A DNA stretch of 61,009 nucleotides, counting the filler, from Stramenopiles sp. TOSAG23-6 (Eukaryota): NCBI GenBank assembly GCA_900128565.1. It is 14 parts of 14 records of this genome, joined end to end, with 100 filler letters (N's around TTAATTAATTAA, not from the genome) between each part and the next. Parts side by side here need not be neighbours in the genome. Positions count along the whole stretch, not along the records: positions 13,149 to 17,427 come from LT637208.1; 13 more parts are not named here. One strand, written 5' to 3'. Made by a program: the position numbers and the translations under genes. The notes under the pieces are model-generated. The model was not told where the DNA came from. It ran no database searches and saw only the letters and a list, made by a program, of their open reading frames with translations. Positions 582 to 60,059 of the stretch are shown in pieces (positions within the stretch are counted from its first letter, which is position 1; the number at the start of each line of letters is the position of its first letter).

Positions 582-2038
582 TTATTTTCTCCTTCCTGGG
601 TATAAGAAGTTCAAAAGCATATCAGCTGCATCAGATTCGACAGTTGTAGGAGATATTGAAGGAGATCTACTACTTCTAGTAGCAGATGTTATTGATGCCA
701 TACTACTGCAACTTAGTTTACGATCTGCGATACTACTGCAACTAAGCTTGCGATCACAATGTTCACCATTAGGAGAGGAATAAGAGGATCCAGGAGATTC
801 ACCAGATGATGAAAGGCTATACAAGTCTGGAGGACCTGTATATATCGCGAAAAATAGTTCAAACATTTTAAAATTTTTGTTAGGTACAGAATGTTCAAAA
901 AAAAAAAAAAATCAAAAAAAAAAAAAATAAAATCATAGACACATACATATTGGTTTACAGGTGACATTTTTCCTCTACCTTCCAAGGACAAACTACCCCG
1001 ACGTAAATATCCTTCTCTTTCTATCATTGGTAATTCAGGAGGGGCAGATATATTCGGTAATTGCCAAGATGGGTGGTTTACTAGATGTGATGGTTGAGAC
1101 AATTTCTTTCTAGAAGTTTTTGATATACTCGAAGAAAATCCATCTTTTGAAGTTTTCTGTTTTTTAGCACTTTTTCCTTTTTTTCTTGAGCCGCGTTTCA
1201 TAGGTCGAATGACCCGTAGAGCTCCAGTTTTACCAGAACGACATTGTAGTGTAAAAGTCCGTCCTTCGCCGATTTTACCCATTGCTTCTTTATACGCACC
1301 AGCTGCTTCTTCTTCAGATGAAAAGTCACCCAAATTGTAAGACAAGCCCTCATGCTGGAGTTGGGCTCGCCATTTCTTTCGCTTTGATATCCACGAAACA
1401 CCACGGTAAATACTCGTAGGTGGGCGCTTTTTTACAGCATTTGCACCTTGTCCAAAATTTAATCGGGCTCGTGACCCGTGGAGCTCAAGTGCACGCTTGT
1501 CATATGCCCTGGCTGCTTCTTCCTCTAAATGAAAGCTCCCTAAAAAATGTTTCTTTCCCTGATTGTATATCTGAGCATGCCATTTTTTACCTTTACCTGC
1601 AGAGGTTCGAATATAGACCCCGCGATAACTTGATGTCGATGTGCTCAACTTTAAGGTAGGACATATATTTTTTTGTTTTATTACCAATGGCCCTTTTGCT
1701 GGTTGTTTTTCATCTACTTTTTCGGTGCGTGNGGGTAAGACTGGTGTAGATATAGACGCTATTTTAGATTTTATAACTAAAGATCCATTACACAGAGTTT
1801 TACTAGTACCATTAATAATATTGGAATGTGTAGCTTGAGGCTTTTTTGTAGCTTCACCGGGTGAAAGGGAAGAAAGAACTGAAGCTGACAGCTTACGCTT
1901 CCCAGAGTTAGATGTTGAAATATTCATATCTTTCTTTTTGTTTTCTACTGCCCCAACTGAAACAACAGTACACTCTATTGAAGACGTTCCTCGATTATTT
2001 AGCTCTGCATAATTGACGTTCTTACGAACGCGACTCAT
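582..2038 (-). CDS. AP2/ERF-domain transcription factor (two AP2 domains); exons 2038-947 and 839-582
   Basis: SSYRGVY..KWHAQI..HFLGSFHLEEEAARAYD and SIYRGVSW..KWRAQL..LGDFSSEEEAAGAY; GT..TAT splicing gives a Ser-rich tail (last-exon frame uncertain). Confidence 0.85.
840..946 (-). mobile_element. family intron GT...TAT (107 nt)
   Basis: tat|GTATGTG...TGTACCTAAC...GAACTATTTTTCGCGATATAT|aca; an alternative CAG lies 4 nt further on. Confidence 0.65.
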
Positions 2039-9145: not shown

Positions 9146-9308
9146 AAAGTATTTTTTATAATTATTGTTTCGTAGAAAATTTTGTACCTAATTTTTTTTT
9201 CCGTTATTCCCCCGGACGGTATCAAAGTTAACGTACTACGCGTAGTCCTACCTAAAAAGAACATTAGAAGAACAAAACCAAAGAGTAACAAAAAGAAGGT
9301 CTTTCGTA

Positions 9309-10847: not shown

Positions 10848-11042
10848 TAAAAGCCATATAAGATTGATATGTTAAATGGGTATTATCCAGTATCATCAAA
10901 GAAACAAAACTGAAGAGATAACACATTTTTATAATTTACAATTCGTACGTTCAAGTAGTTTTTTCCAATTGTTTGGGAAACAGTCTACTACGAAATGACA
11001 AAAATATTAAAATCAATTTCAAATTATTTTTTTCTTTATTTT

Positions 11043-11924
11043 TCAAATATTTTGTGGCGGAATTGGCGGATTTCCCTTTTCAGCTTTCCAGGGAACCTTT
11101 GGCGGTATTATGTGAATGACTACAGGATTTTGTTTTTGAATTACTTCGAATCGAATTTGCCTTCCACGAGTATTCATGGCAATTCGAATAATTCCAGCCA
11201 ATTCATAGGCGGATATCCTCCAATGAACAATATCAATAGGAATTTTTGGAATTTTTCGTTTTCGAAAACGTGATTTAGATTGAATCGATTGGATATCATC
11301 AACAGGTAACAAATTTTGTATAGAAACCCAATTAGATATCCAATGAGTCGGTTCAATAACGATTCGAACGTTCTTATGATATTTTGAGGATTCTTTAAAG
11401 GCGCAAGCAACTAGTTTTCGATTTTTTTTTCGTGTCCAGTTTTGAGTGTTTAATACTTTGTATTCTGGTCTTTTGATATATCCTACAATAATTTCACTCA
11501 TTCCAAAAACCCACTCTGATGTGAATTCATCACATGTTTTTATTTCCTTTATTCCCTTACTATTGTCTTTGTAGACTTTCAGGGTTTTGAATTTTGGTAT
11601 ACACTGTGGAGTGTGAAGTTCTTCCGTACCACATAACTTTGGATTCGTGCATTGAGTTGTTATATCTGCATCGAAAAACTTGTTTTTATCACAATGCAAA
11701 GGTGGTCCACGTGTGTAAAATTCCTCATACTTGGAATGCCAAAAAAAGTGATAAAAGAAGTAAGATCTCATATTTTCGTCTGGCATCAAGACTTCCATAA
11801 GCGGTCCGCCAACTAACTTTGCATTTTCAAGTGTCTCTTTACGTTCCCGAATATAAGGACTCATTTTCCTTGCTTCGGGAGATACGACAGTTTGTATGAT
11901 GGCGATCAAGAACAGCGTTTTCAT
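11043..11924 (-). CDS. hypothetical protein with possible signal peptide
   Basis: 293-aa intronless ORF, no recognised domain. Confidence 0.55.
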   Translation of the reverse strand: MKTLFLIAIIQTVVSPEARKMSPYIRERKETLENAKLVGGPLMEVLMPDENMRSYFFYHFFWHSKYEEFYTRGPPLHCDKNKFFDADITTQCTNPKLCGTEELHTPQCIPKFKTLKVYKDNSKGIKEIKTCDEFTSEWVFGMSEIIVGYIKRPEYKVLNTQNWTRKKNRKLVACAFKESSKYHKNVRIVIEPTHWISNWVSIQNLLPVDDIQSIQSKSRFRKRKIPKIPIDIVHWRISAYELAGIIRIAMNTRGRQIRFEVIQKQNPVVIHIIPPKVPWKAEKGNPPIPPQNI

Positions 11925-12286
11925 TTCTACACTTCTAACTTCTTGGAAAGGCGGACTATAATTTCTTTTAAGTAGTTGATCAATAAAATTAGTACCGTAT
12001 TATTCGTATGTCAACGTCATCTCTGCATCTCGACATCAACATCAGTTGACATCCATCAGTGTTGAAGAAGAAGAGCAAGAAGAGCGCGAAGATCAAAAAA
12101 TCGGAGGTTTTTGAAAAAAAAAAAATGAATAAAATTTTTGATGTCAAGATCTGTCACTGTCACATTGAATTGACAAGGAATTCGACGACAGTCATCCTAA
12201 ATAATATAAAAGTTAGCAAGAGTTGAGATTGGTGGACTCTACTGTAGCTAGTTCTACAATCTCATAACCGTACATTGATATTAATA

Positions 12287-12992
12287 ATGCAATCGCGTCG
12301 GCGACATATGCAATTGTCGTATGAAGAAGATACAGAAAGTCAGAAAAATACGGAAAGTCGGAAAAATACTCCAAATGTAAAATTAAATACGTTTGTGGAG
12401 TTTAATCTCGTTGGACGAATGCCAGCTGAAGGTTTCAGTGATATAAAGACTCCAGATAATGTAGCTATTGCTACCTGTATAATTCAAGCAGGCACTCAAG
12501 TTCTTCTTCCGAAATCTAAAAAGTCAGGAGATAAGAATATCGTTACTATTTCTCATACAATCCTGGAGGGACATCGATTTGCAGTCCAACATATAAAAAA
12601 AGGAGAACAATTGCTTTCTTGGGGGCTTCCTTTTGCTACGGCGACGCAAGACATTCAACCAGGTGAATATTTGTGTAATGACAGAATTGTTCAATCTTTA
12701 AAACTTCGCGGAGTGAAACAAAAACTTCCAACGGAGACAAATTTCAAAGACTTCTCTGAAGTTTATCAATTAAATGAGACAACATTTTGCCCCGTTGAAC
12801 AAGTGAAATTACTCCCAATATCAAAACAACGTTTTGAGGGTCATTTCGAAGGTTTTTCTCGTCCAGGATTTCGTGGTGTTGGTACAAGAAATATGATCAT
12901 TGTGCTAGGCACTACTTCACGAACTGCTGGATTTGCCAGACGGGTGGCTGAAATAGCACAAAGTAGACTACTATCAAATCATAATCCCTGTA
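12287..12992 (+). CDS. UxaA/GarD-family dehydratase (SAF domain), exon 1 (partial)
   Basis: DNVAIA..ILEGHRFAVQHIKKGEQLLSWGLPFATA, FEGFSRPGFRGVGTRNMIIVLGTTS. Confidence 0.8.
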
Positions 12993-13048
12993 ATATGTTT
13001 TATTTTTTTTTCAATTTCGAATTTATTTTTCATACGAAATTTTGTACC
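12990..13048 (+). mobile_element. 5' part of family intron (donor GT at 12990 or AT at 12993), truncated
   Basis: GTAATATGTTTTATTTT...TTCGAATTT...CATACGAAATTTTGTACC. Confidence 0.65.
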
Positions 13049-13148
13049 NNNNNNNNNNNNNNNNNNNNNNNNNNNNNNNNNNNNNNNNNNNNTTAATTAA
13101 TTAANNNNNNNNNNNNNNNNNNNNNNNNNNNNNNNNNNNNNNNNNNNN

Positions 13149-16005
13149 ATGTACTATTGTCTACTAATGAAAACACAAATATGGATAATACAAATGTACT
13201 ATTATCTAGTAATGAAAAGTATCTCGTGAAAACATCAAAAATTTCGATATCAAAAAAAAAGTCGTCAATTTATCATGGAGTAGAATGGCATTCAGATAGC
13301 GGTTGTTTTCTCTCAGTGTTACGTTGTACATTTGATCATAGTGAACATTTGAGTAATAAACAATCTAATGAAATGCAAGTAGTGGAAATGTCTTCATCCA
13401 GTGTGGATTGTTCAAATGAATTATCAAGTACAAAAAAGAGTACAATTATTAATCCGAATGAAATTCAACGAGAAAAGACAAATATAATGGTTAAGATGCC
13501 TACAAAAGAATTATCAAAACAAGTTGATGATGTTAAAAAAACAAAAAAACAAATGAATGATGATCAAAAAACAAAAAACATTGAATTGGTAAGTCGTTCT
13601 ATTGTTCTTGGTTTATATGAAAATGAATATGATGCAGCATTAGTTTATGATTGTGCGGCAAGAATGCAATCCGGAGATAATGCAATTATCAATTTTTTTG
13701 GTACTGTCAAAGAAAGAAATGTAAAAACAGCACAAGTACTATGGGCATTATGTGAAAAGTGCAATAAATGGCGTATTGTGGCTTCGGAACCTTCATCGGA
13801 ATCTGTGTTTACCTGTGATACTGTTGGTAGAAGCTGCTTTGAAGTGGAAGACACAACCGAATCTCTCGAAGCTGCGTTACATTCTGGTCGAGATATATCT
13901 TGTATTGGTCAAGTTTGGGACTCTATAGCTTTTGCTTCTATTGAATGGCGTAAAAAGATTGTTATGTGGAAACACAAAGTAAATGATATACGACCACCCA
14001 TACGACCAGAAGATGGCTTACATTGGTGGAGGCTTCTTGAAAAAGCTAGACGTGAAGAATTTCCGCCTCTTTTAAGTCATATGTATGTTTTATTTTTTTT
14101 TCAAATTCCAAATTTTTTTTCGTACGAAATTTTGTACCTAACGTTTTTTTTTTTTCGAAATATTTTTTCATAATCCATAGATGATGAGTGTACAAAGATT
14201 CAAAACAATATTGATGAAATTAATATCCGTTTAAAACTTGCGCATAATGATTTAAATGCTGCTGTGGCATTTGCTGGATCAATTGGAGTCAACTGTAATA
14301 TGTATGTTTTATTTTTTTTTCAATTTTTTAACCATTTTTTTTTCGTACGAAATGTTGTACCTAACGAATTTTTTTTTGAAATATTTTTCCAAATACAAAA
14401 GAGCGCCCAGACTCGATATCTCTGGAATCATTGGAAGGTATTAGTGACGTCATTGCTTACCGCCATTGGACATTTCGTAATGAATCGTATGAGAATAGCG
14501 CAGAAAGTTATATGATGGCAATGAAACTTCAAAAAAGACCAAGAGGTGTTCCTCCTTCAGACGATAGCATTTCAATAAAATACGCCTCAAAATTTGTCAA
14601 TTTGGAAGACGCACCTGTTTCTCTTCCTCCTGCTATCCCAATCATGCTAGACTACAATTATAACAAGAATAGTACATGTGAAACGGGTCAGTCATTTCAG
14701 ATGAATATGAATAAAATGGAAGTCGATGAGAATGATGCTAGTGTTGATGATTCGAGACCGAAGAAGCGAAGAAGAACATCTTTGAATTACGACACGAATG
14801 TGTTTGACAGATCTGGCGTTGAAATGAAGAATTCAAATAAAACAAATGGAAATACTATAAATGGCGATATGGGAAAGGTTCATCCTGATGCTCCTCTTCC
14901 CTTACGAGTTCGCCTGAAAAGTAACAATTTTAAAACAGGTCTAGCACCAATGGTTGCTCTTTATCGAAAAGGATCTTCTTTACCACGTTATTTGATGCAT
15001 TTACGTCCTACTTGGCCCAAAGTAAAAGTTGTTGAACCGGACCGAACTGAAGAAGAACTCGAAGAAGCGCAGCATCTTGCCGATGAAGAGTTACTTTCTA
15101 GTTTGAAGCCTCCTAAACGAGCATTATCAGCGTATACGTTCTTCATGAAGGTGAATCGAGTAAAAGTGATTGAATTAAATCCTGGTATCAAACAGACGAT
15201 GGTAATGACAAAAGTAAGTGAGCTTTGGAAATTAACAACTGAAGAAGGAAAAAAAGAATATATTGCAATGGCGGAAGAGGATAAAAAACGTTCTGTAAAG
15301 GAACGGATGGAATATGATTCTATTCGTGCTGGTCCTCTTCGCCGCGAAGCTGAGCGTGAACGTAGACTAAAAAAAGCAGAAAAGGAAGCAAAGAAACCTC
15401 CACCAAAATTATTTTCCAAAGTAGTTCAGGTGAGACCTCACCCAGCTGCATTACTAGGACGACATGATCTTCAAGGTTTATCTCTGACAGCTCAGTGTAA
15501 GGCACTAGGTTTTGCACCTTATTATTTTGTACTGACATACATCCCAGATTTACGATGGGCAAGATTAGCACCAATGGTCATTCGTGGCCGTTTTGAGTCA
15601 GAAGAACGAGGAATGAAAGATCTTGTTGGTCGTACACGGTGGATGCTTGAACCAGAAGGGTCCTCTATGGAGGAATTGGACATTCCTGCTTCTCGGTGTG
15701 TCATTGTTAGAAGTCGTGCCGTGCGACGTTGTCCTGATGCTGACAAAGAAGAATGGCATATTATTGATTATTCTGATGATGATATAGATAATAATCAAAC
15801 TCTGGATACTACTAAAAATGTAGTGGGTGGTGATAGTACAATTAGTGTAGTAGAGGATCTTTGCCAAGAGAAAAATAAGATGGTTTCAAATGCAATGATT
15901 GTATCAAGTGAGATCGATTGCAAACCAGTCATCAAACGGTTGGGTTCCAACTGTATTGATACCCCAGAACCTTTGATAGAAAAGACTCTACTTAATATAC
16001 CGTAA
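13149..16005 (+). CDS. chromatin protein with split AP2-like, CW zinc finger and HMG box; exons <13149-14082, 14179-14301, ~14400-16005
   Basis: SSIYHGVEW..LGLYENEYDAALVYD; WALCEKCNKWR..FTC..C; PPKRALSAYTFF..VSELWKLTTEEGKKEYIAMAEEDKKR. Confidence 0.8.
14083..14178 (+). mobile_element. family intron GT...CAT (96 nt)
   Basis: cat at|GTATGT...AATCCAT|a gat gives SHIDDECTK; using the adjacent AG (14179-80) gives an immediate TGA. Confidence 0.85.
14302..14399 (+). mobile_element. family intron GT...AA (or GT...AC if it ends at 14396)
   Basis: of the ends near the family terminus, only 14396 or 14399 join the long HMG-box frame. Confidence 0.7.
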
Positions 16006-17051: not shown

Positions 17052-17372
17052 TTAGTAAGAAGCAAGATGTCGTCGAGGTCTTTTTATACACGTTTTTTTA
17101 CTATTTTTACTACATTTTTTACTATTTTTACTCTTTATAGATTTACGAGATTTGCACATTTTTTTACAGGATGGGCACGTCCAAATACCAACTGGTTTAT
17201 TTTTCATTTTTAAACAAGATAAATGATACCACTGATTTCGACATTTTACTTTAGAACACATGATCATATCACAATCATAAGCATTACTTGTCTTACATAT
17301 ACAGTACAATCTTTGTTCATTCGCCATTAATGATGGCCTTGGAATACAATCAAACTGTGAATAACCATCCGT
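17052..17372 (-). CDS. PHD-finger protein, last exon (partial)
   Basis: LYCICK..MIMCSKVKCRNQWYHLSCLKM..WTCPSC. Confidence 0.85.
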   Translation of the reverse strand, partial: TDGYSQFDCIPRPSLMANEQRLYCICKTSNAYDCDMIMCSKVKCRNQWYHLSCLKMKNKPVGIWTCPSCKKMCKSRKSIKSKNSKKCSKNSKKTCIKRPRRHLASY

Positions 17373-17427
17373 ATGTATTTTGGAAAAATATTTGAAAAAA
17401 AAAATCGTTAGGTACAAAATTTCGTAC
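17373..17427 (-). mobile_element. 3' part of family intron
   Basis: GTACGAAATTTTGTACCTAACG...AAATATTTTTCCAAAATACAT|acg gat. Confidence 0.8.
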
Positions 17428-17527
17428 NNNNNNNNNNNNNNNNNNNNNNNNNNNNNNNNNNNNNNNNNNNNTTAATTAATTAANNNNNNNNNNNNNNNNN
17501 NNNNNNNNNNNNNNNNNNNNNNNNNNN

Positions 17528-26461: not shown

Positions 26462-27289
26462 AATATTTGCAAAGCTTTCATCATGGGTAACGCCACTGAA
26501 AATATTCTTGATGATGCTGTCCGCCACTGCCAGTATGCGGTGAATGTAATTGTCCCTGTCAGTGAACGCCTATGTTGTGCTGGTGATAGTGATAGTGCGT
26601 TTCCATAATGAATTGTTTACCTACATCTTTTTTTCGTATGAAACTTTGTATCTAAGGATTTAAAAAAATATATATTTTTCACAATGTATGTGATGGTGAA
26701 AATATTAATTTAGAAAATTCTAATTGTGATAAAATTGTTCATAGTTCTAGGCAAAATATTGTTGATAAAAGTATATCTAACCAAAATCATCAAGAAAGAC
26801 ATTTACATATGAGAAAGACCTTGTGTGATCTATACCAAACATCAAATAGTCATCATGTTTGTTTTTTTTTTTTTTTCAAATTCGATTTTTTTTTTTATAA
26901 AAATTTTGTACCTAACAAATTCTAGTTTTTTTTTTTGAAATATTTTTCCAAAATACATGATCCATCACTTCATCATTTACTTTCAGCTCTACTAGAAGTA
27001 AATCCAAGGAAAAGATTAACACTTAAAGAAGCTCGAAGTCATCCATGGGTCACACTTGATGGGACTCATCCCATGCGCGATGAAAATTACGAAACAGAGT
27101 TAGTCACAAAAGAAGATATGAGTATGGCATTTTCAGTGGCTAAAATCGTAAATGATAAGGCAAAATCATGGCTGAATCGAGCTCGTAATACTATTTTTCG
27201 TTCTAAAGCACTTGAAAGAGAAAAGGAAAAAGAAAAGGAGGAAATGTTGAAGAATGAACGCGTCACTGCCTTGGTCATGACAGCTGCTT
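26462..27289 (+). CDS. Ser/Thr kinase (CaMKK-like) C-terminal exons 26462-26594, 26690-26856, 26959-27289 (further exon likely)
   Basis: LHHLLSALLEVNPRKRLTLKEARSHPWVTLDG = kinase subdomain XI; exons join in frame with GT..YAT introns. Confidence 0.7.
26595..26689 (+). mobile_element. diverged family intron GT...TAT (95 nt)
   Basis: gat a|GTGCGT...TTCGTATGAAACTTTGTATCTAAG...CACAATGTAT|gt gat, in frame. Confidence 0.65.
26857..26958 (+). mobile_element. family intron GT...CAT (102 nt)
   Basis: cat cat|GTTTG...AAAATACAT|gat cca, phase 0. Confidence 0.8.
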
Positions 27290-28662: not shown

Positions 28663-30459
28663 ATGGAAAATTGCAGACCTGTAGATAAGAGGATATCTTG
28701 TTGCAGTAATGAAGTAAAACCAAAAATTGGTAATCGGAGACGGAAGCTTCAGCAAGTTGATGGTGTTGGTCCCGAGCCAAATTCAAAAAGACCGAGGTAT
28801 CTAGAAAAGAATAATTCAAATTTAGCCACAAAAAATGCCCCATTGAGTACATTTCCTAATGGAATGATACCAGGTAAGATCAAATTACAACATGCAAGTG
28901 ATGTAGTTTCATTAGAAAAACCTTTTGCCCCGTTACGAGTTATTGATAGCAAAGACGATGTCACTTGTACGTCTGATACTTTGAACCCTCTACAGCATTG
29001 TTCCGAGTTTTCAAATAAGATAGCTATAGAAGTAACAGAGAAAGCAGTAGGATTAAAAAATGAAAAAACTTTATTGTGTAAGAAAAATCAATTGGATTCG
29101 AGTGAGGAAACTGGGTCGGAAGAAGAATTACGCGAACTCAGTTCAAACTTGATTTATTCGATAAATGGTGATACAAAAACAAGCAATACAACTTCAAGTG
29201 CTGTAGCGCCTAGAGATTTTGAATTCCGGCCGATAATAACAAATATCACTATTCCAACAAACGCCAAGACATTGAACAATGAAGTTGATGATTCAGAACA
29301 ACAAAATATTGTTGGGGTTCATAAGTTCAAACACGATGATCTAGATGAAATTTTACCTGGTTACGCTAAGGTATCCAAGTCGAAGGAAATATTCTACCAA
29401 CCTGATTTTAATTACATGCACAGGCATCCTGAATTAGAGGTTGTTATGCGCGCCATACTTATTGATTGGATGATGTAGGTTTTCAAAATTGAATTTCAAA
29501 TTTATTTATTTTTTAGTATGAAATTCCATACCTAACAATTTTTTCTACAATGTTTTTTTTTCACGATACATGGAGGTTTGTCATGAATACGGTTTAAAAA
29601 GAGTCACTCTCCAAAGAGCAATTAATTATACTGATCGCTATCTTTCAATATGCGAAGGTTTAGAAAAAGTACAGTTACAATTGCTCGGTGTTACATCGTT
29701 GTTCATAGCTTCTAAATTTGATGAAATTTACCCTCCAAGTGTACAAGATTTTGCAGTAACTACCGATGGTGCTTGTTCTAGAGATACTATTAGAGCTTTC
29801 GAAGGCAGGATCATTTCAGTTCTGAAGTGGCGATTAGTTCCTGTGACGTGTAATTGTTGGATCTCATATTATGTGCAGCGTCTTGCACATCTTCAAATTG
29901 CGTATAGAGCACAAAAAAAATCTAGCGCTAGTGTTTTGGTAACAAGGGAGTGGGATATCGACCGAGAAACGCCTCCACCATTGTATGGCTCTATTGATGG
30001 TGCTGGTGCCCCAGATTGTACACCTGCAGATGATGGACAAAAACGTGCAAAGCGTCGCTCATTTTCTGGTGTTTCTTCAGAAATGAATGATAAGAATCCC
30101 TCAAATAGTAAAGATATAAAAAATGTAGCCCAAATGCCACGTTTATTTGATCATAATGATGATAAAAATATATGCTCAGAAGCAACTGTGAAGAGCAACT
30201 TTAACGAAAAAAATGAAAATGATGTCAACAAAAAAAGATGTAACAATTTGCCAATTTCGAAACGTTCATCTCATTTCATGCATCGTATCAAAGACATTGA
30301 TACTGAAAATGAAACGGATAAGGTGCACATTGGAAATGCATGCTCTGCTTGCTTTCCACAAGATGCTGTCTTTCCCGAGGCTTTGTTTGAGAGAGCAACA
30401 GATTTAGTCGATCTTTGCGTCTTAGATTCTGTCGGTTTGACACATAGGAGAAGTCACAT
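28663..30459 (+). CDS. cyclin (E/A-like box); exons 28663-29474 and 29572-30459, 3' partial
   Basis: spliced MRAILIDWMMEVCHEYGL..AINYTDRYLS..LQLLGVTSLFIASKFDEIYPP. Confidence 0.92.
29475..29571 (+). mobile_element. family intron GT...CAT (97 nt)
   Basis: atg at|GTAGGT...ATACCTAAC...CACGATACAT|g gag restores the cyclin box. Confidence 0.85.
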
Positions 30460-32088: not shown

Positions 32089-34908
32089 TTACAATTTTCC
32101 TTTATTTTTCATGGTAACTACTGTATTCCATTCATCTGTACCTGGACATAATCTATGGTAACCTATTGAGGCTGTTGACGTACTTACATCAGAGTGACAC
32201 ATACCTGCTTTTGGCATTTCCCCAAAAGGGCGAGGTATTTCTCCATGTAATACATCAACAATATCTCGTGCCAAATTCATTCCAATTGCTGCTTCACTCG
32301 CTCTTCGAGACTTGCGTTGTCCCTTACGGCGAATCGCCCATTTGTATAATAAATTTCGGTTGAATGGCATAGGTGCAAGTAATCCTATAGTATCCTTTAT
32401 CAAGGCTGACTTAATTCGCTTATCCAAATCATTTTCAATACCAAATGATGGTGAGGCATTCACTTCAAGTAACCATGGTCGAAGTGAAGAATCAATAATT
32501 ATATCATAACCATACACTTCGAAACAATTTGGTTGGTGTTTGATTAAATCATCAGCACAAACTAGTGACTTTAAAATCAATATATGTATATTTTTCTGTA
32601 ACTTTTGTGTATCAATATTTAATTTTTCTAGGCGTTGTAAGAGGAAACTATATGAAAGTTTACTTCCTCCTACTTCTGAGGATGGTGCAGTCATAAGAGG
32701 TGTACATGATATTGTGCTACGGTTTTGATAAAAGCTTTCAGTATTTTTCGATTCTTTTGTCCTTATCTCCGGTTTTTGTTGTACCGATGAATTTGTAAGA
32801 TGCATTCGAAGATCTTTGAGGTAATCCCTATTTATTGGTTCCTCAGAGTCGTCTGGATCTTCGTTACCAATTTTATACTTGACCGTTGACATTCTCGCAA
32901 AGCCTTCTGTGTAGATAAAAGCCTCTAGGGGTTGGAATGATGTAACAAGTACATATAATCTCAGATCGAATTTGTATCCATCAATCAGTAATGGTTCATC
33001 AATATATTGCTGTACCACATGTATTTTGGAAAAATATTTCAAAATATTTTTTGTTAGGTACAAACTTTCGTACGAAAAAAAAATCATACAAAAAAAAACA
33101 TACAGCTGCCTCGGAATAGCGTAGTGTTGGACTATCTGTAATTCTAATTCCTCTTCCACGACTCATCAGTGCGGGCTTGACAATCCAAAGATTTTGTCTT
33201 GTAACATTTACACTGCTAGCGTTTGAACGTTTATCGTCCATCACATGTTGTGAATGGATTAATTGATCCTTTCGCTCAAAAAATGCTTTTGTAAATGCGT
33301 TATATTCTGTGGGTAAAATAAATGTGGGTGGCTGTATCGAAAAAGTAGATAATACACCCCCCATTTTCCAATATCTCGCAAGTGTTTTACACAATAAATC
33401 TTTTCTTGTCAGGCAACGAGCACCAACAAAGCGATGAACACGTTGCCAAGGCAAAAGTTGATCAAATGCAAGACGTGGTTCCTGGAAACACCACAAGATA
33501 TTCCAAGCCATCCGAGAACTATACGGTGTGCTCAAAGAAGTCATTGATTTAGCAGACATACTTTTGTAAGTATTGTATGTCTTAGTGTCATCTTTAGGGT
33601 CGGTCTTGAATTTAAACTCACGAGTAGACTCATCTGGAAGCTCCCGCATTCCTAGTGCATTAAACTGCTCATGTACTAGACTATATACTTCAGATTTTCG
33701 TTTCGATACAACAAACCATAGTTGTTGATTACCCAACTTTTTCGATAAATTCATCATTTTATTATTGTAATGGTATCTATTATGCTTACTTTCGTCGTTT
33801 GTCGTTTTATTTAGATTATGCAAAAACTTTACACTACTCAGAGATTCTTCGCCATTATCTTTGGAGTAAAATTCATTATATCCACCGCTAACTCGAATAC
33901 TACAAAATTTATTGTAACTTTTCAAAGAGGATTCGCTTGCCCATGGCTTATACGTATTCTCTATACTATTCCATATCTTTAATAATTCCCTTTCAGCACT
34001 TTCGCTATGCCGTCGACTAGTCTGTTTATTCTGGCCTTGTTTTAAATTTTTCATCAATAATGAGGGGCGGAGCAACTCGATTTCATTAGGCCAAAGTTTT
34101 GAAAGTGGAATAATGTAATTGTCACTATCATAATCTATTTTATCTTTCTGTGTATCATTCTTGACGTTTTTAGTGAATAAAATATCTTTGCTGATTATCA
34201 TGCGTTTTGGTGGTAACTTATCAAAATTTGTCACACGTTTTATCGCATTTTCGTCATTAGAACCTACTACATTCCCTATTGTCACTTGATTACTTATACC
34301 ATCATTTTCATCTAGAATGAAAGATCCAGAAGGTGCGAAATTTGCGCCTCGCTTATCATCAGTATTCAATGTACTTACAGCATGCAATTTATCCTTACTA
34401 TCGCTTTGGTTCACCTCAATTGAATGAGGTTCATGTAGAAATTGTTCTTCATTCTTATTTATTTCACAACATTCATCATCTTCAAGGTTACCCTCTTCAT
34501 TCTTATTTATTTCACCACATTCATCATCTTCAAGGTTACCCTCCGGAGTCCAACCATCGTACCAATCATCAACTTCAGATTCTTCTTTGTCGCAGAATTC
34601 AATATTTGTTTGATCTAATTCTATGATAGGATCTTTTTGTACACTTGAGCTATCATTTATATGTTTATCGAGTTCAACTACTGTATTATTATTCGTACTA
34701 TTTGATTCATCCAATTCTATCATAGGATTATTTTGTGCATTTATATTTTCATGATGCTCAATTACTGTATTATTATTCGAGCTATTTGATTCATCTGATT
34801 CAATGATGGGATTATTTTGTGCATTTATATTTTTATGATGCTCAATTACTATCTTATTATTCGAGCTATTTGATTCATCTGATTCAATGATGGGATTATT
34901 TTGTGCAT
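32089..34908 (-). CDS. tubulin-tyrosine ligase-like (TTLL) polyglutamylase; exons <34908-33104 and 33018-32089
   Basis: LTRKDLL, WIVKPALMSRGRGI, VVQQYIDEPLLIDGYKFDLRLYVLVTS, MHLTNSSVQ, CFEVYGYDII, PWLLEVNASPS. Confidence 0.93.
33019..33103 (-). mobile_element. family intron GT...CAT (85 nt)
   Basis: gca gct|GTATGT...AAAATACAT|gtg gta cag gives YSEAAVVQQYI. Confidence 0.88.
34660..34908. repeat. 84-bp coding tandem repeat in TTLL N-terminus
   Basis: GGATTATTTTGTGCAT recurs at 34725, 34809 and 34893. Confidence 0.8.
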
Positions 34909-37765: not shown

Positions 37766-39199
37766 ATGCAACACTTTCTAACTTTCATTGTTTACGCCTC
37801 CATCATTCAAGGAACATTTTCATGCACTAATTATATGGTTACCAGAGGTGCATCAAATGATAATAGTACCATTGTGGCGTACAATTCTGATGGGTTTTCT
37901 CTATTTGGGTATCTTAAACACTTGCCAGCACAAGAATATGTCCCAGGAACTTTACGTGATGTGTATGACTTTACAAGTGGCAAATTTTTGGGTTCAATTC
38001 CAGAAGTATCGGCTACGTATAATGTGGTTGGTAACACAAATTCGGAAGGCCTTTCGATAGCAGAAACAACTTTTGATGGAATCGAAAAACTTGCAGAACC
38101 ATTTCCTGGATCCATACTTGACTATTATTCTTTAATGTGGATCACTCTTCAACGTACAAAAACTGCTCGTGAAGCAATCGCGACTATGGACATTTTAACT
38201 AGTAAATATGGATATGCGTCGACCGGAGAGTCATTTTCAATAGCAGATACGAAAGAAGTTTGGATCATGGAAATGATTGGTCGTGGGTTACATGAAAAAG
38301 GTACTGTTTGGGTGGCTAGAAAAATTCCTAATGGCGCCATCTCCGGCCATGCAAATCAGGCACGTATAGAATCCTTTCCTCTCAATTCCACAGATACTCT
38401 TTATTCTTCTGATATTTTTGAATTTTCTAAAAGGAACAATCTCACTGCACAAAATCTACCCAATTCAGAATTTAACTTTGCTCAAACATGTATGCTTTAT
38501 TTTTTTTTGGTATGAATTTTTTTTTCATACGAAATTTTGTACCTAACATTTTTTTTTTGAAATATTTTTTCAGAATACATTTGACCCTATCACCTCAATT
38601 GGTGCACGCGCATGTGACCTTAGGGTATGGAATTTTTTTCGTTTAGCTCTAGGCAAACAAAAAGGCAGAAAATTTGCAGATAAATATCTCGAATATGTGA
38701 AAGGTTACAATTTAAGTAGACGAATGCCTCTATGTATGTNGTATTTTTTTTTTAACAAAAAAATCGAATTTATTTTTCGTACGAAAATTTGTACCTAACA
38801 AATTTAAGTTTTTTTTTTTTGAAATATTTTTCAAAAATACATACGTACAAGTTGGTAATAATAAAGTGAGTGTCAATGATACGATGTGGGCGATGAGAGA
38901 TCGATATCAAAACACGTGGTTTGATCAAAGTGGTCGTGATAAGCCCGACATTAGTGCAGGGCCATTCCATTCCCTAGTAAGAACAAGACCTTTAGCATTT
39001 GAATTGGGACAAAAAAAATATTCATTCGAAAGGAATGTATGTTTTATTTTTTTTTTTTTTGTATGAATTTATTTTTTATAGTAAATTTTGTACCTAACAA
39101 ATTTTAGGGTTTTTTTTTTGAAATATTTTTCCAAAATACATGTTGGTTATCAAGGAACTTTTTTCAACTTTGTTGCCAATAGTCGTGGTCATTTTAAAT
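37766..39199 (+). CDS. peptidase C69 (dipeptidase/secernin); exons 37766-38489, 38581-38733, 38843-39036, 39142-39199, 3' partial
   Basis: signal peptide then catalytic C (SCTNYMVT), ETTFDG, ALQR-like ITLQRTKTAREAI, GESFSIAD, HANQARI; spliced FAQTFDP..LRVWNFF, RMPLYV, FERNVGYQGTFFNFVA. Confidence 0.9.
38490..38580 (+). mobile_element. family intron GT...CAT (91 nt)
   Basis: aca t|GTATGC...CAGAATACAT|tt gac; using the internal CAG would create TAA. Confidence 0.88.
38734..38842 (+). mobile_element. family intron GT...CAT (109 nt)
   Basis: cta t|GTATGT...AAAATACAT|ac gta, in frame. Confidence 0.88.
39037..39141 (+). mobile_element. family intron GT...CAT (105 nt)
   Basis: agg aat|GTATGT...AAAATACAT|gtt ggt, in frame. 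Confidence 0.88.
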
Positions 39200-52519: not shown

Positions 52520-55500
52520 ATTCATCTTTTGACATTGCATTATTATTCATTTGACGTTTCATTACGTTTTCCTGTTTATGTTTGTGTTTTGTCCTCCATG
52601 GACGTGAAGAATTTCGTCTTATCGATCGATCTCTGTACTTTTCGCATTCCTTTGGTGGATTGATTTTTTGACTATCAAATCGATGACGTCTTCTTCTATT
52701 TCCTTTTCCAATTGAGTATTTATTTACACGCCCTCGTCCACGACCCCGAAGTGATTTAGGGTTAGAGTTAAGGATACTGCTTTCATATTCTCTCGAAAAA
52801 GAAGGGAAAGGCACGTCAGCATTACTCGGAAAAGATGGATATACAATATCATGAGAGCTCATTGAAGGTGGTATCATCGATCCGCTCCCAGCTGTATGGA
52901 ATCCGAAATTACGACGACGGGTGTCAGCTGCTTTGATAGTAATACCCATCGAATTAGGATGATATGAATGTAAATTTCTTTTTTTTTGTTTTTCCACACT
53001 ATCTAAGAGCTCATCATAGGATATTGAATGATCTTTATCAGTATCATATTCACGAAATAATTTTCTCATTATGTCTCTGGAAGGTAATGGACGTATGCCA
53101 ACACCTGCAATGCCTTTGCAAAACTCTTCAAAAGAAATTCTATTTGATTTATGCATTTTCGAAAAATATTTCAGAAAAAAAATCGTTAGGTACATAATTG
53201 CGTACGAAAAATAATTTCGAAATTGAAAAAAAAACATACATTTTGATCCATCCATGAAAATAAGTGACCAGTTGTAACCATTTTTTTCTGTAGCGCAAAG
53301 CGTAAATCATCAACTGTTGCAATTTTTGTGTACTTACTATTAAATGGATCATTTGTATGCAAATTAGAGATTTTGTAGGGCGACAAAGTTTTAGGACTGA
53401 TTTTTCCTCGTCTTTCCTTCATCAATCGACGTTCTTCTGCAATTGCATTCCGAAGCAATGATTTATTTAGTGCATCGCGAGCCCTCCGTGCTGTTGTCTC
53501 ATCTTCTTTGGCCTTTTCAAACATTTCTAATTGAAGATAATTCCGATGCCTATTTCGTGTCAGACGCCCTCTAGCAATCGCCTGTATAAAGACAATTGAA
53601 TTAGTAATTTTTAATGCCTTTTTGTATTGCTTTTCTGTTGACCGTTTCGCTTTTTTAGCAGATTTCAACAAATCATAATCATCCATGTTTATGGATAGGA
53701 AATTCTGAATAAGCAAATTGCCATGTTTAGCTGCTTTGCCAACAACTATCCGTCCAATCTCATAATTAATATGAGTTTTCATCACAGTATTGATAAAATT
53801 GCATAATCTACTAAGAATAGAAATTTTTGTACGTTTCGTAAATTGTGACATTGACATTTGCTGTTCCTCTGGTGTTAGCAGAATATTACAAACATCACCA
53901 CTACTATCTATATTAAAAAGTATTTCTTTAACTATCAAAAATATGCTACTAAAAGTAGGTGTTCGTAGTCTGCTGTAATTCCTTGATGCAATTGTTTTCA
54001 TCAAACCTTCGGAAATGCAACCTTTCAATACATTGAATGTGTCCCTCACATAATTTGGCAGTCTATGTTCTTTTTCAAGTGCTTCTAATAGATTTCTATA
54101 CGATATTAAATTATTTGAGTCTAGTTCAAAGTTACTAAATAGCAACTTTGTATCGTTTCTAGAAATAGTTGGACGAAGATCCAGTTCAGCAATACCCCGT
54201 TTGAAGGTATTAAAATCAATTTTATATGTATCATGATGATTAAATAAAGCCCCAGTTGTGACATGAAATAAATGTAGTTGTCGTCGATAATTCCGCATTT
54301 TTCTACGTTGTTGTGGAGTTAAAACAGCCTTTACTTGTTGTATTTTGTTTGGTTTTTGAATAGTATGCTTTGTATCAATGGAGTTATTTTGAATTATAGG
54401 GCTAAATCGAACACTCTTTGGTCTCGTTCCTGGCCTCGACGAACTACGTCTAGATAAGATGCCTTCGCGTGGACGAGCTCCAGCTTTAGTGTAATTAGTA
54501 CTTTTTATAGCCCCATTCTCAGACGATTCAGCAGTAGCTTCCCTATTTTTCTTTTCAACCAATTCTAATTTTTGTTTATGCTGTATCAACGTTGATTTTA
54601 ATTTACGTTTTCTCTCTTGTTCGTTTTCGATTGCATGCTTAGTCCATGACTCAATATCAAAACGATCATCAGTTTTTTTATCCATTGGCTGGTTTATATG
54701 ACTATTTTCGTACTCACCATCTGTATCATCTTCAAAATCATCACCAAATGATGAATAGTTTGTTGAAGCTCTAGTTCTACCAGTATTTGCACGGGTTCTG
54801 CCCGTTGTTGAGCGCTGTGGAGTAGAAGATAAATTGTTCATGGGAGATGACTCTGGTAAAGACACTAGCTGCTCTTCCTCCTTATTTTCTACAATTTTCT
54901 TTTTTTGATGATGAAATAAATGTTTTACTCCCCCTTCTATTGTTTTCTCGACCACCATGGCACCATGTTTCGTCTTTTTTGTCGCAGATGTAAACGACTG
55001 TTCAGCTATCGCTGCGTCACTTTTCAATACTGTCAAAATATTAGAAGGATGTTTTTTGTCTGATTTTGACTGAACTATAGAAGATTCATCACCATCTGTA
55101 TCATCTTCAAAATCATCACCAAATGAAGAATAGTTTGTTGAAGCTCTAGTTCTACCAGTATTTGCACGGGTTCTGCCCGTTGTTGAGCGCTGTGGAGTAG
55201 ATGATAAATTCTTTACGGGAGATGACTCTGGTAAAGACACTAACTGCTCTTCGTCATTTGTATCCTTATTTTCTACAATATTGGAATGAGTTCTTGTGAC
55301 TAATTTTGACTGAACTATATCAGGAGATTCATCACCATCTGTATCATTTTCAAAATCATCACCAAATGATGAATAATTTGTTGAAGCTCTAGTTCTACCG
55401 GTATTTGCACGGGTTCTGCCCGTTGTTGAGCGCTGTGGAGTAGATGATAAATTATTTACGGGAGATGACTCTTGGTGACGGTGTTGGTGGTGACGGTGAT

Positions 55501-57253: not shown

Positions 57254-60059
57254 ATGTTTGTCGGATCATCAACATGTGTAAATAATGAGAAGGTTGGGAT
57301 GAAAGATCTCCATGAAAGTAGTAGTACAATTTCTGTAGATCATACAAAGGGACCTTCTAATGTTTTGGAGGACATTGACAGGCGTTGTGACCAGGTTAAT
57401 TCACGTCGAATTCAACGTCTTAAACGGCATAGTCATGCTCAGACTATTCTAGATCCTGTTTTGACCATTCGATCTCCGAAATCATCAAAACGTAAATCTT
57501 TAGATTCTAGTAAAACTGTTGTGACAGAGTCGTTAGGTACTGTTGAAAGAGGACGAAGTGGTAGCGTCCTTCTTGCACGAAGAGTTCTTGAGGCGGATGA
57601 ATTTAACCCTTTACTTCATTTTCCTACATCTGACTCGAATACGTCTATCGAATCACTAGATGTACATCATAAAATTTCATCATCTGTACATCACATTACT
57701 GAAGACCAACATTGTAAGAAAAATAATTTATATAATGGTAAAGACACAAAAAGAAAACAAAGTATAATGAATAGACAACATTGTAATAGAGGTAGTAATG
57801 AAGATGTTGAGAAGTTGTTCAAAAATAGTCAAAATAGTCATGAAAATATTTCTAATTTGTCTACATTGAAAACATATAGGCATTCATTGACATCTAATTC
57901 TTTAGATGATAGTACTACATCAATTCACAGTAAGAAGATTCAATCAAGAGAACCTTGGAATCTTAGTAGTAACTCTAACCCTAACCCTAACCCTTGGAAT
58001 CTTAGTAGTAACTCAAAACACAATACAAAAACGAAATCCTACCCAAATATAAAACATACAAAACATCAAACAATGAATGAAAATGAAAATATATTCACCA
58101 TGAAAAGCAAATCTCAAACATTTAAAAAAACACAAAAAACACAAAAAACACAAAAAACACAAAAGAATAATTCTTTATTAAATTCATTGAATGATGAAGA
58201 AAATTTTCGCATCTCATTAGGTCGTCAGACAGGATTGTTCCAAATGGTGAAGGCTGGTTCATATATAAGTCATACTCGTCAGTCACATGGCTTATTTAAT
58301 AATCTATTCCGTTTTTCTTATGCACAAATAAATGATAAAAACACAATTCTTACAAAAACACGAAATCTGAATGGTTTAAAATTTCGGTCGTTTGAAGAAT
58401 TTTCAACAAATCGTTCAAATATTACTGTCTGTTGTGAATTACCTGATTGTGCAGTAGTACGTTTTTTTTGTGTAGTACATTTTTTTAGAAAACAAAAATG
58501 TACCTAATTGCGAACTGTCCAATTTTTTTTTCATACGAAATTTTGTACCTAACAAATTTTGAATTGTGAACTGTCCAATTTTTTTTTTTTTTTTTTTTTT
58601 TTTTCGAAAAAAAAAAAAATTTTGTACCTAACAAATTTTGAATTTTTTTTTAAATATTGTCCTATATTGTACGTGTCACGAAATCATTTAGATAAAAAAG
58701 GAATATCTCACTCTACCATGTCTCATCTTGATGGTGGTACTGTTGAAGATGCGTTAGGTACAAAATATAGTACAAACATGTCAGATCCAATATTTCATAC
58801 AAAAAACAGTACAAATATTCCAACAAGTACATTTTTCATCTAACAAAAAACATTTTTTTTTTATAGTAAATATTGTACCTAACAAAAAACATTTTTTTTT
58901 TCATAGTGAATTTTGTACCTAATGAAAAACCAAAAAAAAAATAAATTAAATATTTTTTTACAATACATAAAATCATTCAACTGCATTTTCTCAAATGGGT
59001 GCAAAAAAAAATAGTAAAAATAATAATATTGTGAATATTAGAGAATATATAATACGTTTTCATTTCAAAAAAAATATTTTTTTTTTCAATTTTTTTTTTC
59101 AATTTCAAAAATTTTTTTTCAAATTTTTTTTTTCAAATTTTTTTTTTTTCAATTTTTTTTTCGTACGAAATTTTGTACCTAACAAAAATTTAAAATTTTA
59201 TTTTGAAATATTTTCACAAAAAACATGTTGATATTCCACTTATATTAATCATCGATGAACCAAATAATTCATATATATCAGAATTTGAAAATGATCAAAA
59301 AGATTTTTTTGCTACTTCGAACAAAATAAGTATCGAAAATCAAAATAAAAAAATCTTGAACCCAAATCTTTTGAAAAAAAAATCTTTAGGTACAAAATTG
59401 GGTACAAAAGAAAACATCGCTAATAAACCGAAAATTTTATCATGTAATATCAATATTAAAAACATAATGTATGTTTTATTTTTTTTTTCAAATTCGAATT
59501 TTTTTTCGTACGAAATGTTGTACCTAACAAATTTAAGTTTTTTTTTTTGAAATATTTTTCCAAAATACATTGGTGTTCGACATTTCGGAGCATCGGTGTT
59601 AATTGATGCTAATCATATAACATTTGAAAAAGATGAAAAACAAAATAGTTATATTTGGGGTAAATTATGTAAAAATTTGCCATCTAGCCAAGGAAGCCAA
59701 GATGAGAAATATTTGAGTGATATGTTTAATCATTTTAATGATACTAATGATGATACTAATGATGATGATCATCATAATGATACTACTACTAATAATAATA
59801 ATACTAATAATACTGATAGTAATACTACTACTACTACTAATAATAATAATAATGATAATAATAATAATGATAATGATAACACTATTACAAATCCTACAAA
59901 TAAAAAGGAAGAAAAAATGAAATTATTGACAAGAGGAAATAATTCTTCCACACGAGACAAAATTGTTTCAGTGTTTAAACAACAGCAACCAACAATACAT
60001 GGTTGGGTTCTCTTACAATATAATGAATATCATTTACTAAAGCCAAACCATATTAACAA

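What the first reader, a model, noticed from the sequence alone, without database searches (positions are those of the whole stretch)
14302..14399. 3' splice site appears set by a 16-nt ruler from a GAAATA box, not by the dinucleotide
Seen: internal poly-T runs vary freely, yet the distance from (G/T/C/A)AAATA to the inferred end is 16 nt in the copies ending at 66, 8829, 14178, 17373, 26958, 33019, 38580, 38842, 39141, 53151, 58968, 59226 and 59570. Applying the same count predicts frame-restoring ends with other dinucleotides: AA (14399), AC (58672), AG (26461), and possibly TT (4235, 27380). Exceptions exist: 15 nt at 840, and a degenerate box at 29571. Inference: acceptor choice is positional. 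The A in GAAATA may be the true branch point or a factor-binding site, reminiscent of distance-defined U12 acceptors.
Basis: partly seen in the sequence, partly recalled or inferred. Interest (0 to 1): 0.8.

Follow-up and report, generated by a model that had tools for sequence, protein, structure and literature searches.

The report
Repeated AT-ending introns; ruler unproven
The constant 16-base spacing is real, but it looks like the inherited tail of a repeated, mobile-element-like intron that ends in AT instead of AG, and the sequence does not show that the cell counts bases to choose the splice site.

Summary
The window is a chain of ~4.3-kb contigs from an AT-rich marine eukaryote; its best protein matches are to stramenopile algae. 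The genes are interrupted by one repeated ~85-110-nt intron: AT|GTATGT...CGTACGAAATTTTGTACCTAAC...T-run...GAAATA + 16 nt ending (C/T)AT|.

In detail: all 13 listed copies have 16 nt. The GT...AT boundaries hold at codon level at four junctions. Three peptidase C69 junctions align without gaps to 8 homologues. At the cyclin junction the Pfam profile runs 38|39. AGs inside or just after the intron are not used.

The ruler itself is not shown. The last 22 nt are simply a conserved part of the repeat. The 22-nt branch-site core, where nobody proposes a ruler, also has no indels in 11 of 11 aligned copies.

In the two copies where the count and the terminal YAT disagree, YAT wins. These are 946-840, minus strand (15 nt), and 29475-29571 (19 nt, no box at -22).

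The focal copy (14302-14399) has no in-frame YAT. Ends at 14393, 14396 and 14399 all restore the frame, and homology cannot choose. No RNA contig bridged the junction. A positional fallback in YAT-less copies stays possible (~0.2).

The parts
14302..14399 (+). Focal intron copy. GTATGT 5' site at 14302-14307, preceded by exonic AT. The 3' end is uncertain: 14399 (AA, 16 nt), 14396 (AC, 13 nt) and 14393 (AA, 10 nt) all restore the frame.
   Evidence: nhmmer E 3.8e-15
14344..14365 (+). Conserved core CGTACGAAATGTTGTACCTAAC of the focal copy. It holds a GTAC..GTAC mini-hairpin and the CTAAC branch-site consensus, 34 nt before 14399.
14369..14377 (+). T-run (9 T) of variable length among copies.
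14378..14383 (+). The GAAATA box of the finding.
14384..14399 (+). 16-nt tail TTTTTCCAAATACAAA. Against the consensus TTTTTCCAAAATACAT it needs either about one deletion, one insertion and one substitution, or five substitutions. It holds no in-frame YAT.
14083..14178 (+). Upstream intron of the same gene, GT..CCAT|. The frame requires the end at 14178, not the AG that ends at 14180.
14179..14301 (+). Exon 2 of the focal gene (coding score +20.7 in the required frame).
38490..38580 (+). Peptidase C69 intron 1, GT..ACAT|. The junction is gapless in T-F-D-P, and an internal TTTTTTCAG is skipped.
38734..38842 (+). Peptidase C69 intron 2, GT..ACAT|. The junction is gapless in R-M-P-L-Y/W-V.
39037..39141 (+). 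Peptidase C69 intron 3, GT..ACAT|. The junction is gapless in E-R-N|V-G-Y-Q-G-T-F-F-N-F.
29475..29571 (+). Cyclin intron with a degenerate box (ACAATG + 19 nt, ends ACAT|). The Pfam Cyclin_N profile runs 38|39 across this end.
840..946 (-). Intron in an AP2-domain gene: box GAACTA, 15-nt tail, ends ATAT|. An end at 16 nt, or the AG at 19 nt, falls in a frame that does not score as coding.
58457..58672 (+). Composite 216-nt copy, GTACGT..GTAC|, box TAAATA + 16 nt. It is in frame with a downstream frame that scores as coding (+25.2).
33019..33103 (-). Intron splitting the tubulin-tyrosine-ligase domain. It is the only complete canonical copy whose 5' exon ends in CT rather than AT, and it still ends ACAT|.
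53151..53239 (-). Canonical copy ending GCAT|, in frame at 16 nt.
26857..26958 (+). Canonical copy (5' GTTTGT) ending ACAT|, in frame at 16 nt.
59469..59570 (+). Canonical copy ending ACAT|, in frame at 16 nt.

Best explanation
The finding sits in one copy of a young, highly repeated, introner-like intron family of an AT-rich marine eukaryote. The family layout is AT|GTATGT, a T-rich stretch, CGTACGAAATTTTGTACCTAAC, a T-run, then GAAATATTTTTCCAAAATACAT|.

Shown, by reading frame and by protein homology but not by RNA: the intron is removed from |GT to (C/T)AT|, or an equivalent cut shifted by up to 2 nt within the AT/AT direct repeat. AG dinucleotides are ignored.

Inferred: the 16 nt between GAAATA and the end are constant because the last 22 nt are one conserved module inherited by all copies, not because the machinery counts from GAAATA. 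The acceptor is read from the terminal module itself, with a YAT end taking the place of YAG, and CTAAC is the likely branch site. Where indels changed the spacing, the splice site moved with the terminal YAT.

The focal copy has a damaged tail without an in-frame YAT, so its true acceptor is undetermined (14399, 14396, 14393 or another site). It may be spliced at the homologous position, at a cryptic site, inefficiently, or the assembly may be wrong in its A-run.
For: - One repeat family: 44 matches to GTACCTAAC against 6.6 expected; 40 of 60 nhmmer hits with E<0.01.
- 13 of 13 listed copies have 16 nt. The 22-nt core also has no gaps in 11 of 11 aligned copies, so constant length is general for the non-homopolymer parts.
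- The GT..AT junctions are gapless against 8 homologues at three C69 junctions.
- The cyclin junction is continuous at Pfam profile 38|39 at ACAT|, 19 nt after a degenerate box.
- The 946-840 copy needs 15 nt, at ATAT|; the coding frame scores +28.7 against -19.1.
- The internal CAG is skipped in 38490-38580. AGs 33-34 nt before the end are skipped in four other copies, two of which (38734, 39037) have homology-checked junctions.
- The exon ends in AT before the 5' site in 10 of the 12 complete copies, and also in the 5'-only copies seen.
Against: - No spliced RNA was seen for any copy. In one search no contig bridged 14083-14178 or 14302-14399.
- Two YAT-less copies (14399 AA, 58672 AC) are in frame at exactly 16 nt, which a ruler predicts and a strict YAT rule does not.
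- The focal tail looks like a 1-nt deletion offset by a 1-nt insertion, which would fit selection on length.
- Both counter-examples have degenerate boxes, so an advocate could say the anchor itself is altered there.
- The 15-nt case rests on ORF length and codon statistics, not on homology (Pfam found nothing in that exon).
Confidence: 0.6

Rival explanations
1. A true ruler. The 3' splice site is placed a fixed 16 nt downstream of the (N)AAATA element, which would be a bound factor or the real branch point. The terminal dinucleotide is irrelevant, as in distance-defined U12-type acceptors.
For: - 16 nt in 13 of 13 listed copies.
- An end at 16 nt is in frame in 11 of 12 testable copies, including the YAT-less 14399 (AA) and 58672 (AC).
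- AG is ignored.
- The focal tail has offsetting indels.
- U12-type splicing tolerates AT-AN and GT-AT ends (PMC1557818, passages read).
Against: - 946-840 needs 15 nt.
- The cyclin copy ends 19 nt after its degenerate box, with no box at -22..-17. An end at 16 nt would insert a residue between Cyclin_N profile positions 38 and 39.
- The first box base varies (G, C, T, A) and GAAATA has no branch-site consensus, while a perfect CTAAC lies upstream.
- The 5' site is GTATGT, not the U12 type.
- Equal absence of indels in the 22-nt core shows that constant length needs no ruler.
Confidence: 0.17
2. Structure-defined excision. The intron ends pair (exon-AU + GUAU with AUAC + AU) and the cuts are placed relative to that helix. 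This is what is proposed for euglenid nonconventional introns and for Amoebophrya introner elements with direct and inverted repeats.
For: - A 6-nt palindrome ATGTAT...ATACAT spans both boundaries, with a 2-nt AT direct repeat.
- The minimum-energy folds pair the two ends in 4 of 5 copies folded.
- Amoebophrya elements have 3-5-nt direct repeats and 8-20-nt inverted repeats at non-canonical boundaries (PMC7789003, passages read).
Against: - Folding energies are no better than shuffles in 4 of 5 copies (z -0.34, -0.39, +1.25, -0.48; one at -3.47).
- By hand alignment, the helix register predicts 14398 in the focal copy and 58674 in the 58457 copy, both out of frame (my reading).
- Copies with 5' GTTTGT or GTAGGT, or with a CCAT end, weaken the helix without compensating changes.
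- Strong GTATGT and CTAAC signals point to an ordinary spliceosome.
Confidence: 0.08
3. The focal copy's odd end is not biology of acceptor choice. Either the A-run or tail is mis-assembled, or this intron uses another acceptor (14396, 14393, or even 14438), or it is poorly spliced in a decaying gene.
For: - The assembly is fragmentary, with single Ns and contig breaks inside the repeat.
- Several ends are in frame.
- Two RNA-library contigs from two studies start at 14439 and 14440, and nothing covers 14400-14438. Excision of 14302-14438 would also be in frame (my arithmetic).
- Homology begins only at about residue 356-368, just around 14440.
Against: - Exon contigs match the window with 0-1 mismatches elsewhere, so the assembly is not generally poor in exons.
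- The frame from 14401 scores as coding (+42 over 100 codons).
- An end at 14438 would be GG, with no known signal.
Confidence: 0.15

Closest known systems
Introners: transposon-like repeated spliceosomal introns of Micromonas, Aureococcus, Symbiodinium, Chrysochromulina, Florenciella and others (PMC9860276, passages read)
   Same: Many near-identical short copies sit inside unrelated genes in the sense orientation. They are AT-richer than the exons. A short direct repeat lies at the boundaries, so removal restores the frame. The element carries its own 5' site and branch site.
   Different: The families described there are reported with GY-AG boundaries. That paper's passages mention only rare GC and GA 5' sites, and I saw no non-AG 3' ends in them. 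Here the 3' end is YAT and AGs are skipped. The direct repeat is only 2 nt (AT) and the inverted termini about 6 nt, so a TSD/TIR origin is not established. I could not see the SI table that lists families and species; it may bear on whether this family is already catalogued.
Non-canonical introns and introner elements of Amoebophrya A25/A120 (PMC7789003, passages read)
   Same: A marine protist with repeated introns, non-GT/AG boundaries, direct repeats overlapping the boundaries and inverted repeats joining the ends. The splicing rule is unknown.
   Different: Amoebophrya shows no preferred terminal dinucleotides, has 8-20-nt inverted repeats, and has GC of about 54-58% in the genes quoted. 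Here one family has a fixed GTATGT 5' site, CTAAC and a YAT end, only a 6-nt palindrome, about 35% GC, and stramenopile-like proteins.
U12-type introns with non-canonical termini (PMC1557818, passages read)
   Same: GT-AT and AT-AN ends are spliced by the minor spliceosome.
   Different: The 5' site here is GTATGT(T/C)TT, not RTATCCTT. The branch-like CTAAC lies 33-43 nt from the end, not close to it. A long T-run is present, whereas U12 introns lack one.
Fritillaria borealis non-GT/AG introns handled by the major spliceosome with diverged U2AF (bioRxiv 10.1101/2025.08.15.670264, abstract read)
   Same: A spliceosome that accepts non-AG 3' ends genome-wide.
   Different: It is an animal with many different terminal dinucleotides. 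Nothing here shows U2AF duplication, because no genome is held for this window.
Euglenid nonconventional and intermediate introns (PMC3935182, PMC4770533, PMC12501133: abstracts in the search listing only)
   Same: Non-canonical borders and pairing that brings the intron ends together.
   Different: Those have variable borders and a stable secondary structure. Here the structure is weak and the conventional 5' and branch signals are strong.

Membership tests
Introner (repeated, mobile-element-like spliceosomal intron) | Many sequence-similar copies at unrelated positions in unrelated genes | tested here: met
   40 of 60 nhmmer hits with E<0.01 in 61 kb. Copies lie in AP2, CW/HMG, cyclin, ANAPC3, TTL, peptidase C69, RCC1 and MIP-T3-like genes.
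Introner (repeated, mobile-element-like spliceosomal intron) | Precise removal from mRNA that restores the reading frame | tested here: inconclusive
   The frame is restored in 12 of 12 testable copies at the supported end. Four junctions are exact by homology. No spliced RNA was seen.
Introner (repeated, mobile-element-like spliceosomal intron) | Target-site duplication and/or terminal inverted repeats | tested here: inconclusive
   AT lies before the GT in 10 of 12 complete copies and AT at the end in 10 of 12. This could be a TSD or an insertion preference. The palindrome ATGTAT/ATACAT is only 6 nt.
Introner (repeated, mobile-element-like spliceosomal intron) | Absence of the intron at the same site in relatives (recent gain) | not testable with these tools
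   No genome of this organism or of a close relative is held. The 22-mer scans of viral and prokaryote contigs gave 0 hits. The metagenome scan returned only chance matches.
U2-type GT-AG intron | GT at the 5' end with a U1/U6-type consensus | tested here: met
   GTATGT in 7 of 12 complete copies; the others are GTTTGT, GTAGGT, GTATGC and GTACGT.
U2-type GT-AG intron | Branch consensus (CTRAY) followed by a pyrimidine tract | tested here: met
   CTAAC lies 33-43 nt before the end and is followed by a T-run. Branch usage itself was not tested.
U2-type GT-AG intron | AG at the 3' end | tested here: not met
   The supported ends are CAT or TAT in 10 of 12 testable copies and never AG. Nearby AGs give stops or the wrong frame.
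U12-type intron | 5' site RTATCCTT | tested here: not met
   The 5' ends read GTATGTTT or GTATGCTT. The consensus is taken from the passages of PMC1557818 and from recall.
U12-type intron | Branch sequence TCCTTAAC close to the 3' end, with no pyrimidine tract | tested here: not met
   GTACCTAAC lies 33-43 nt from the end and a T-run of 4-13 follows it.
U12-type intron | Minor-spliceosome snRNAs present in the genome | not testable with these tools
   No genome is held. Rfam found no family in the window.
Amoebophrya-type or euglenid-type structure-defined intron | A stable helix joining the intron ends | tested here: inconclusive
   The ends pair in 4 of 5 minimum-energy folds, but z-scores are -0.34, -0.39, +1.25, -0.48 and -3.47.

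The most novel reading that the evidence does not exclude
In this intron family the second splicing step does not depend on AG. The acceptor is placed by position inside a conserved 3' module, measured from an upstream anchor such as GAAATA or the small GAAA/UUUC hairpin it can form. The last two bases would then be free (AT, AA, AC, TT). That would make it an intron with U2-type looks and a U12-like distance-defined acceptor, spread through the genome by a mobile element.
Probability: 0.2. Interest if true: 0.8.

Novelty: new variant of a known kind. Interest (0 to 1): 0.45.

Why it matters
Annotation pipelines and introner surveys assume GY-AG boundaries. A repeated intron family that ends in YAT and skips AGs would be missed or mis-spliced in gene models of this organism, giving truncated or frame-shifted proteins.

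If the AT end is confirmed by RNA, the organism offers a natural system, with thousands of near-identical substrates, for asking how a spliceosome with ordinary 5' and branch signals picks a non-AG acceptor. The specific 16-nt ruler idea would add a mechanistic twist, but it is not needed to explain the data in this window.

Tried and rejected
- RNA evidence. The look-up of sequencing runs gave only seawater metatranscriptomes with small shares. The lay on the focal contig gave exon contigs with 0-1 mismatches, but none bridged either intron. The listed joints link the two intron copies to each other and are repeat artefacts.
- Transcript-derived proteins. The downstream exon found only 31-57% identical relatives of 293-935 aa. 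Its first 120 aa found nothing among proteins of 66-210 aa. So there is no cDNA-like protein across the junction.
- More copies. My metagenome pattern (branch motif, gap, box) was too loose. The exact 22-mer had 0 hits in viral contigs and 0 in genome contigs. No whole genome is held.
- Homology at the focal junction. N-I-E-R and N-I-K-E-R score the same (140 bits to P0001), and conservation starts about 5-17 residues after the junction.
- GAAATA as part of a GAAA/UUUC mini-hairpin. It appears in some folds, but the first box base changes (G, C, T, A) without a compensating change. I did not pursue it.
- AT-AC reading (cuts shifted 2 nt left). It gives the same mRNA in most copies, but would make the 3' ends CC, AT or GC in 14083, 8829/840 and 53239, whereas the GT...AT reading keeps both ends uniform. 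It is not excluded chemically.
- Rfam and tRNA scans of the window found nothing.
- Literature. Searches found no paper describing a GT-AT repeated intron family in a marine protist. This covers only the held library, and supplementary tables were closed.
Full report
**What the window is**

The 61-kb window is not one locus. It is a chain of about 4.3-kb contigs joined by N44-TTAATTAATTAA-N44 spacers. One 4,250-bp contig is present three times, identically. GC content is about 24-39%.

The open frames encode eukaryotic proteins:
- AP2 domains;
- a CW zinc finger plus HMG box;
- a kinesin motor;
- a tubulin-tyrosine ligase;
- cyclin;
- ANAPC3;
- RCC1 repeats;
- IPT/TIG;
- peptidase C69.

The best protein matches are 31-62% identical. 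Where they carry names, they come from ochrophyte algae (Triparma, Cylindrotheca, Amphora). Exon contigs with 0-1 mismatches occur in seawater metatranscriptomes. I therefore read the source as an unidentified AT-rich marine eukaryote, probably a stramenopile; this is an inference.

**The thing itself**

The genes are interrupted by one repeated element of 85-110 nt, or 216 nt in one composite copy. Its layout is:
- an exon ending in AT;
- GTATGTTTTATTTTT...;
- the core CGTACGAAATTTTGTACCTAAC;
- a short variable linker;
- a T-run of variable length;
- (G/C/T/A)AAATA;
- a 16-nt tail, with consensus TTTTTCCAAAATACAT.

Evidence that it is one repeat family:
- GTACCTAAC with up to one mismatch occurs 44 times against 6.6 expected.
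- A profile built from 11 copies finds 60 hits, 40 of them with E<0.01.
- Many contigs end inside the element, as expected when an assembler meets a high-copy repeat.
- In the RNA libraries the element has summed depths in the thousands while the exons have depths of 2-8. In two runs, 7 and 6 contigs diverge from the window exactly at 17373, the ACAT end of a minus-strand copy (table 7). The repeat therefore ends sharply at the inferred intron end.

**Checking the observation**

Of 21 fully readable tails:
- 14 end in YAT at 16 nt.
- 1 ends in TAT at 15 nt (840).
- 1 ends in CAT 19 nt after a degenerate ACAATG (29571).
- 5 have no YAT at 16 nt: 14399 AAA, 26461 CAG, 27380 TTT, 58672 TAC, 4235 CTT.

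**Are the GT...AT boundaries real?**

I took the 5' site at |GT and examined the 12 copies that have both exons on their contig. An end at 16 nt is frame-compatible in 11 of them; chance would give one in three each.

Homology gives exact junctions in four cases.
- I spliced the peptidase C69 gene at 38490-38580, 38734-38842 and 39037-39141. The product aligns to 8 homologues with no gap at any junction. The junctions fall inside T-F-D-P, R-M-P-L-(Y/W)-V and E-R-N|V-G-Y-Q-G-T-F-F-N-F (residue positions counted by hand from that output). A shift of one codon either way would need a gap.
- In the cyclin gene, the Pfam Cyclin_N match of the upstream exon ends at profile position 38 on the exon's last full codon. 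The match of the downstream exon starts at profile position 39 on the ATG that the junction recreates.

AG is not used.
- The 38490 copy has TTTTTTCAG ending 7 nt before the true end.
- Four copies have an AG 33-34 nt before the end.
- The TAG ending 2 nt after 14178 would give an immediate stop.
- The AGs at 14401 and 14403 are out of frame.

The exon before the intron ends in AT in 10 of 12 complete copies, and the intron itself ends in AT in 10 of 12. The cut sites are therefore ambiguous by up to 2 nt, so AT...AC or TG...CA give the same mRNA. The GT...AT reading is the only one that keeps both ends uniform across the variant copies (14083 ends CCAT, 53239 ends GCAT, 840 ends ATAT).

No spliced RNA was seen for any copy. 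All of this rests on frame and homology.

**Is there a ruler?**

In canonical copies the count and the sequence cannot be separated, because the whole 22-nt tail is conserved and its differences are substitutions.

Constant length is not special to the tail. The 22-nt core around the branch motif also has no gap in 11 of 11 aligned copies. Gaps are concentrated in the T-runs and the linker, and those may also suffer from homopolymer assembly error.

The informative copies are the ones where the spacing changed.
- In the AP2 gene copy (946-840, minus strand) the box is GAACTA and the tail is one base short. The downstream frame that scores as coding (+28.7 bits against -19.1; more than 85 open codons against 41) requires the end at ATAT|, 15 nt from the box. 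It does not fit 16 nt, or the AG at 19 nt.
- In the cyclin copy the end fixed by the profile is ACAT|. That lies 19 nt after the only box-like hexamer (ACAATG), and nothing box-like sits at -22..-17.

In both cases the junction followed the terminal YAT.

Against this, two copies without YAT are in frame at exactly 16 nt: the focal copy (AA) and 58457-58672 (AC, with a downstream frame that scores as coding at +25.2). The 27380 case is weak, because its downstream piece does not score as coding. The 26461 and 4235 ends cannot be frame-tested.

The in-window score is therefore two against and two for, on small numbers. Neither a strict count nor a strict YAT rule covers all 12 copies.

**The focal copy**

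The tail is TTTTTCCAAATACAAA. It differs from the consensus by what looks like a lost A, a gained A and a T-to-A change. Ends at 14393, 14396 and 14399 all restore the long frame that scores as coding (+42 bits). No in-frame end is YAT.

Homologues cannot choose. The two spliced variants score the same, and conservation (AYRHWTF...SYMMA) begins only 5-17 residues after the junction.

One oddity remains unexplained. Two RNA-library contigs from different studies start at 14439 and 14440, and nothing covers 14400-14438. Excision of 14302-14438 would also be in frame. That end (GG) has no known signal, so I leave this open.

**Mechanism**

GTATGT and CTAAC are the classical U1/U6 and U2 recognition sequences (recalled knowledge), and a T-run follows. 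I therefore infer an ordinary major-type first step with the branch at CTAAC, 33-43 nt from the end.

GAAATA has no branch consensus and its first base is free.

The acceptor is most simply a YAT at the end of a conserved module. It keeps the A at -2 that AG also has. AT, AA, AC and AG all share that A, which may be why damaged copies still work; this is speculation.

A helix between the two ends (AUGUAU/AUACAU) appears in 4 of 5 folds but is thermodynamically unremarkable. By hand alignment, its register predicts out-of-frame ends in the two YAT-less copies.

**Comparison with what is known**

- The family works like an introner (PMC9860276, passages), but with a non-AG acceptor.
- It resembles the Amoebophrya introner elements in having direct and inverted repeats at non-canonical boundaries (PMC7789003, passages), but it keeps strong conventional 5' and branch signals.
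- GT-AT ends and distance-dependent acceptors are documented for U12-type introns, and there are rare conserved U2-type GT-AT cases (PMC1557818, passages). The U12-defining 5' and branch features are not met here.
- Fritillaria shows that a major spliceosome can be re-tuned to non-AG ends (abstract only).
- My four literature searches found no description of a GT-AT repeated intron family in a marine protist. Supplementary tables of the introner surveys were not available and might list it.

**Verdict**

- The spacing is real but is explained by descent.
- The ruler is not demonstrated, and two copies contradict it.
- The AG-independent AT acceptor of this repeated intron is the robust and more interesting fact.
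- The focal junction needs cDNA.

Noticed in passing
window 1-61009 (spacers at 4284-4383, 8667-8766, 13049-13148, 17428-17527 and so on): The window is an artificial chain of ~4.3-kb contigs joined by N44-TTAATTAATTAA-N44. Neighbouring genes across a spacer are not linked.
   Followed up: yes
window 39367-43616, 43717-47966, 48067-52316: One 4,250-bp contig (an RCC1-repeat gene ending in a truncated intron copy) is present three times, identically.
   Followed up: yes
window 14439-14685: Two RNA-library contigs from two studies begin at 14439 and 14440 with 0 mismatches, and nothing covers 14400-14438. Excision of 14302-14438 would also be in frame, and the conserved AYRHWTF motif begins just after this point.
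   Followed up: partly
window 58400-61009: A very AT-rich stretch (GC about 24%) holds tandem and nested degenerate copies of the element, several with two or three CTAAC motifs. Some lie outside obvious coding frames.
   Followed up: partly
window 26280-26461: Two element copies lie head to tail at the start of a contig. The second ends in CACAG 16 nt after GAAATA. It may be a twin intron or a zero-length exon. It is not frame-testable, because the 5' exon is off the contig.
   Followed up: partly
window 4050-4235, minus strand: The exon that follows the CTT-ending copy encodes a J-domain (a KKWHPDK motif) when I translate it by eye. I did not run it against Pfam.
   Followed up: no
window 30551, 43617, 47967, 52317, 52416, 30650 (contig ends): Six contig ends fall within the last few bases of the element tail (CCAAAATA or CATAAT followed by N). 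This is consistent with assembly graphs branching at the end of a high-copy repeat.
   Followed up: partly
window 14007-14435 and 17296-17427: In poly(A) and other seawater RNA libraries the element sequence has summed contig depths of about 5,000-13,000 against 2-8 for the exons. Intron-containing RNA (or DNA carry-over) from very many loci is therefore present.
   Followed up: no
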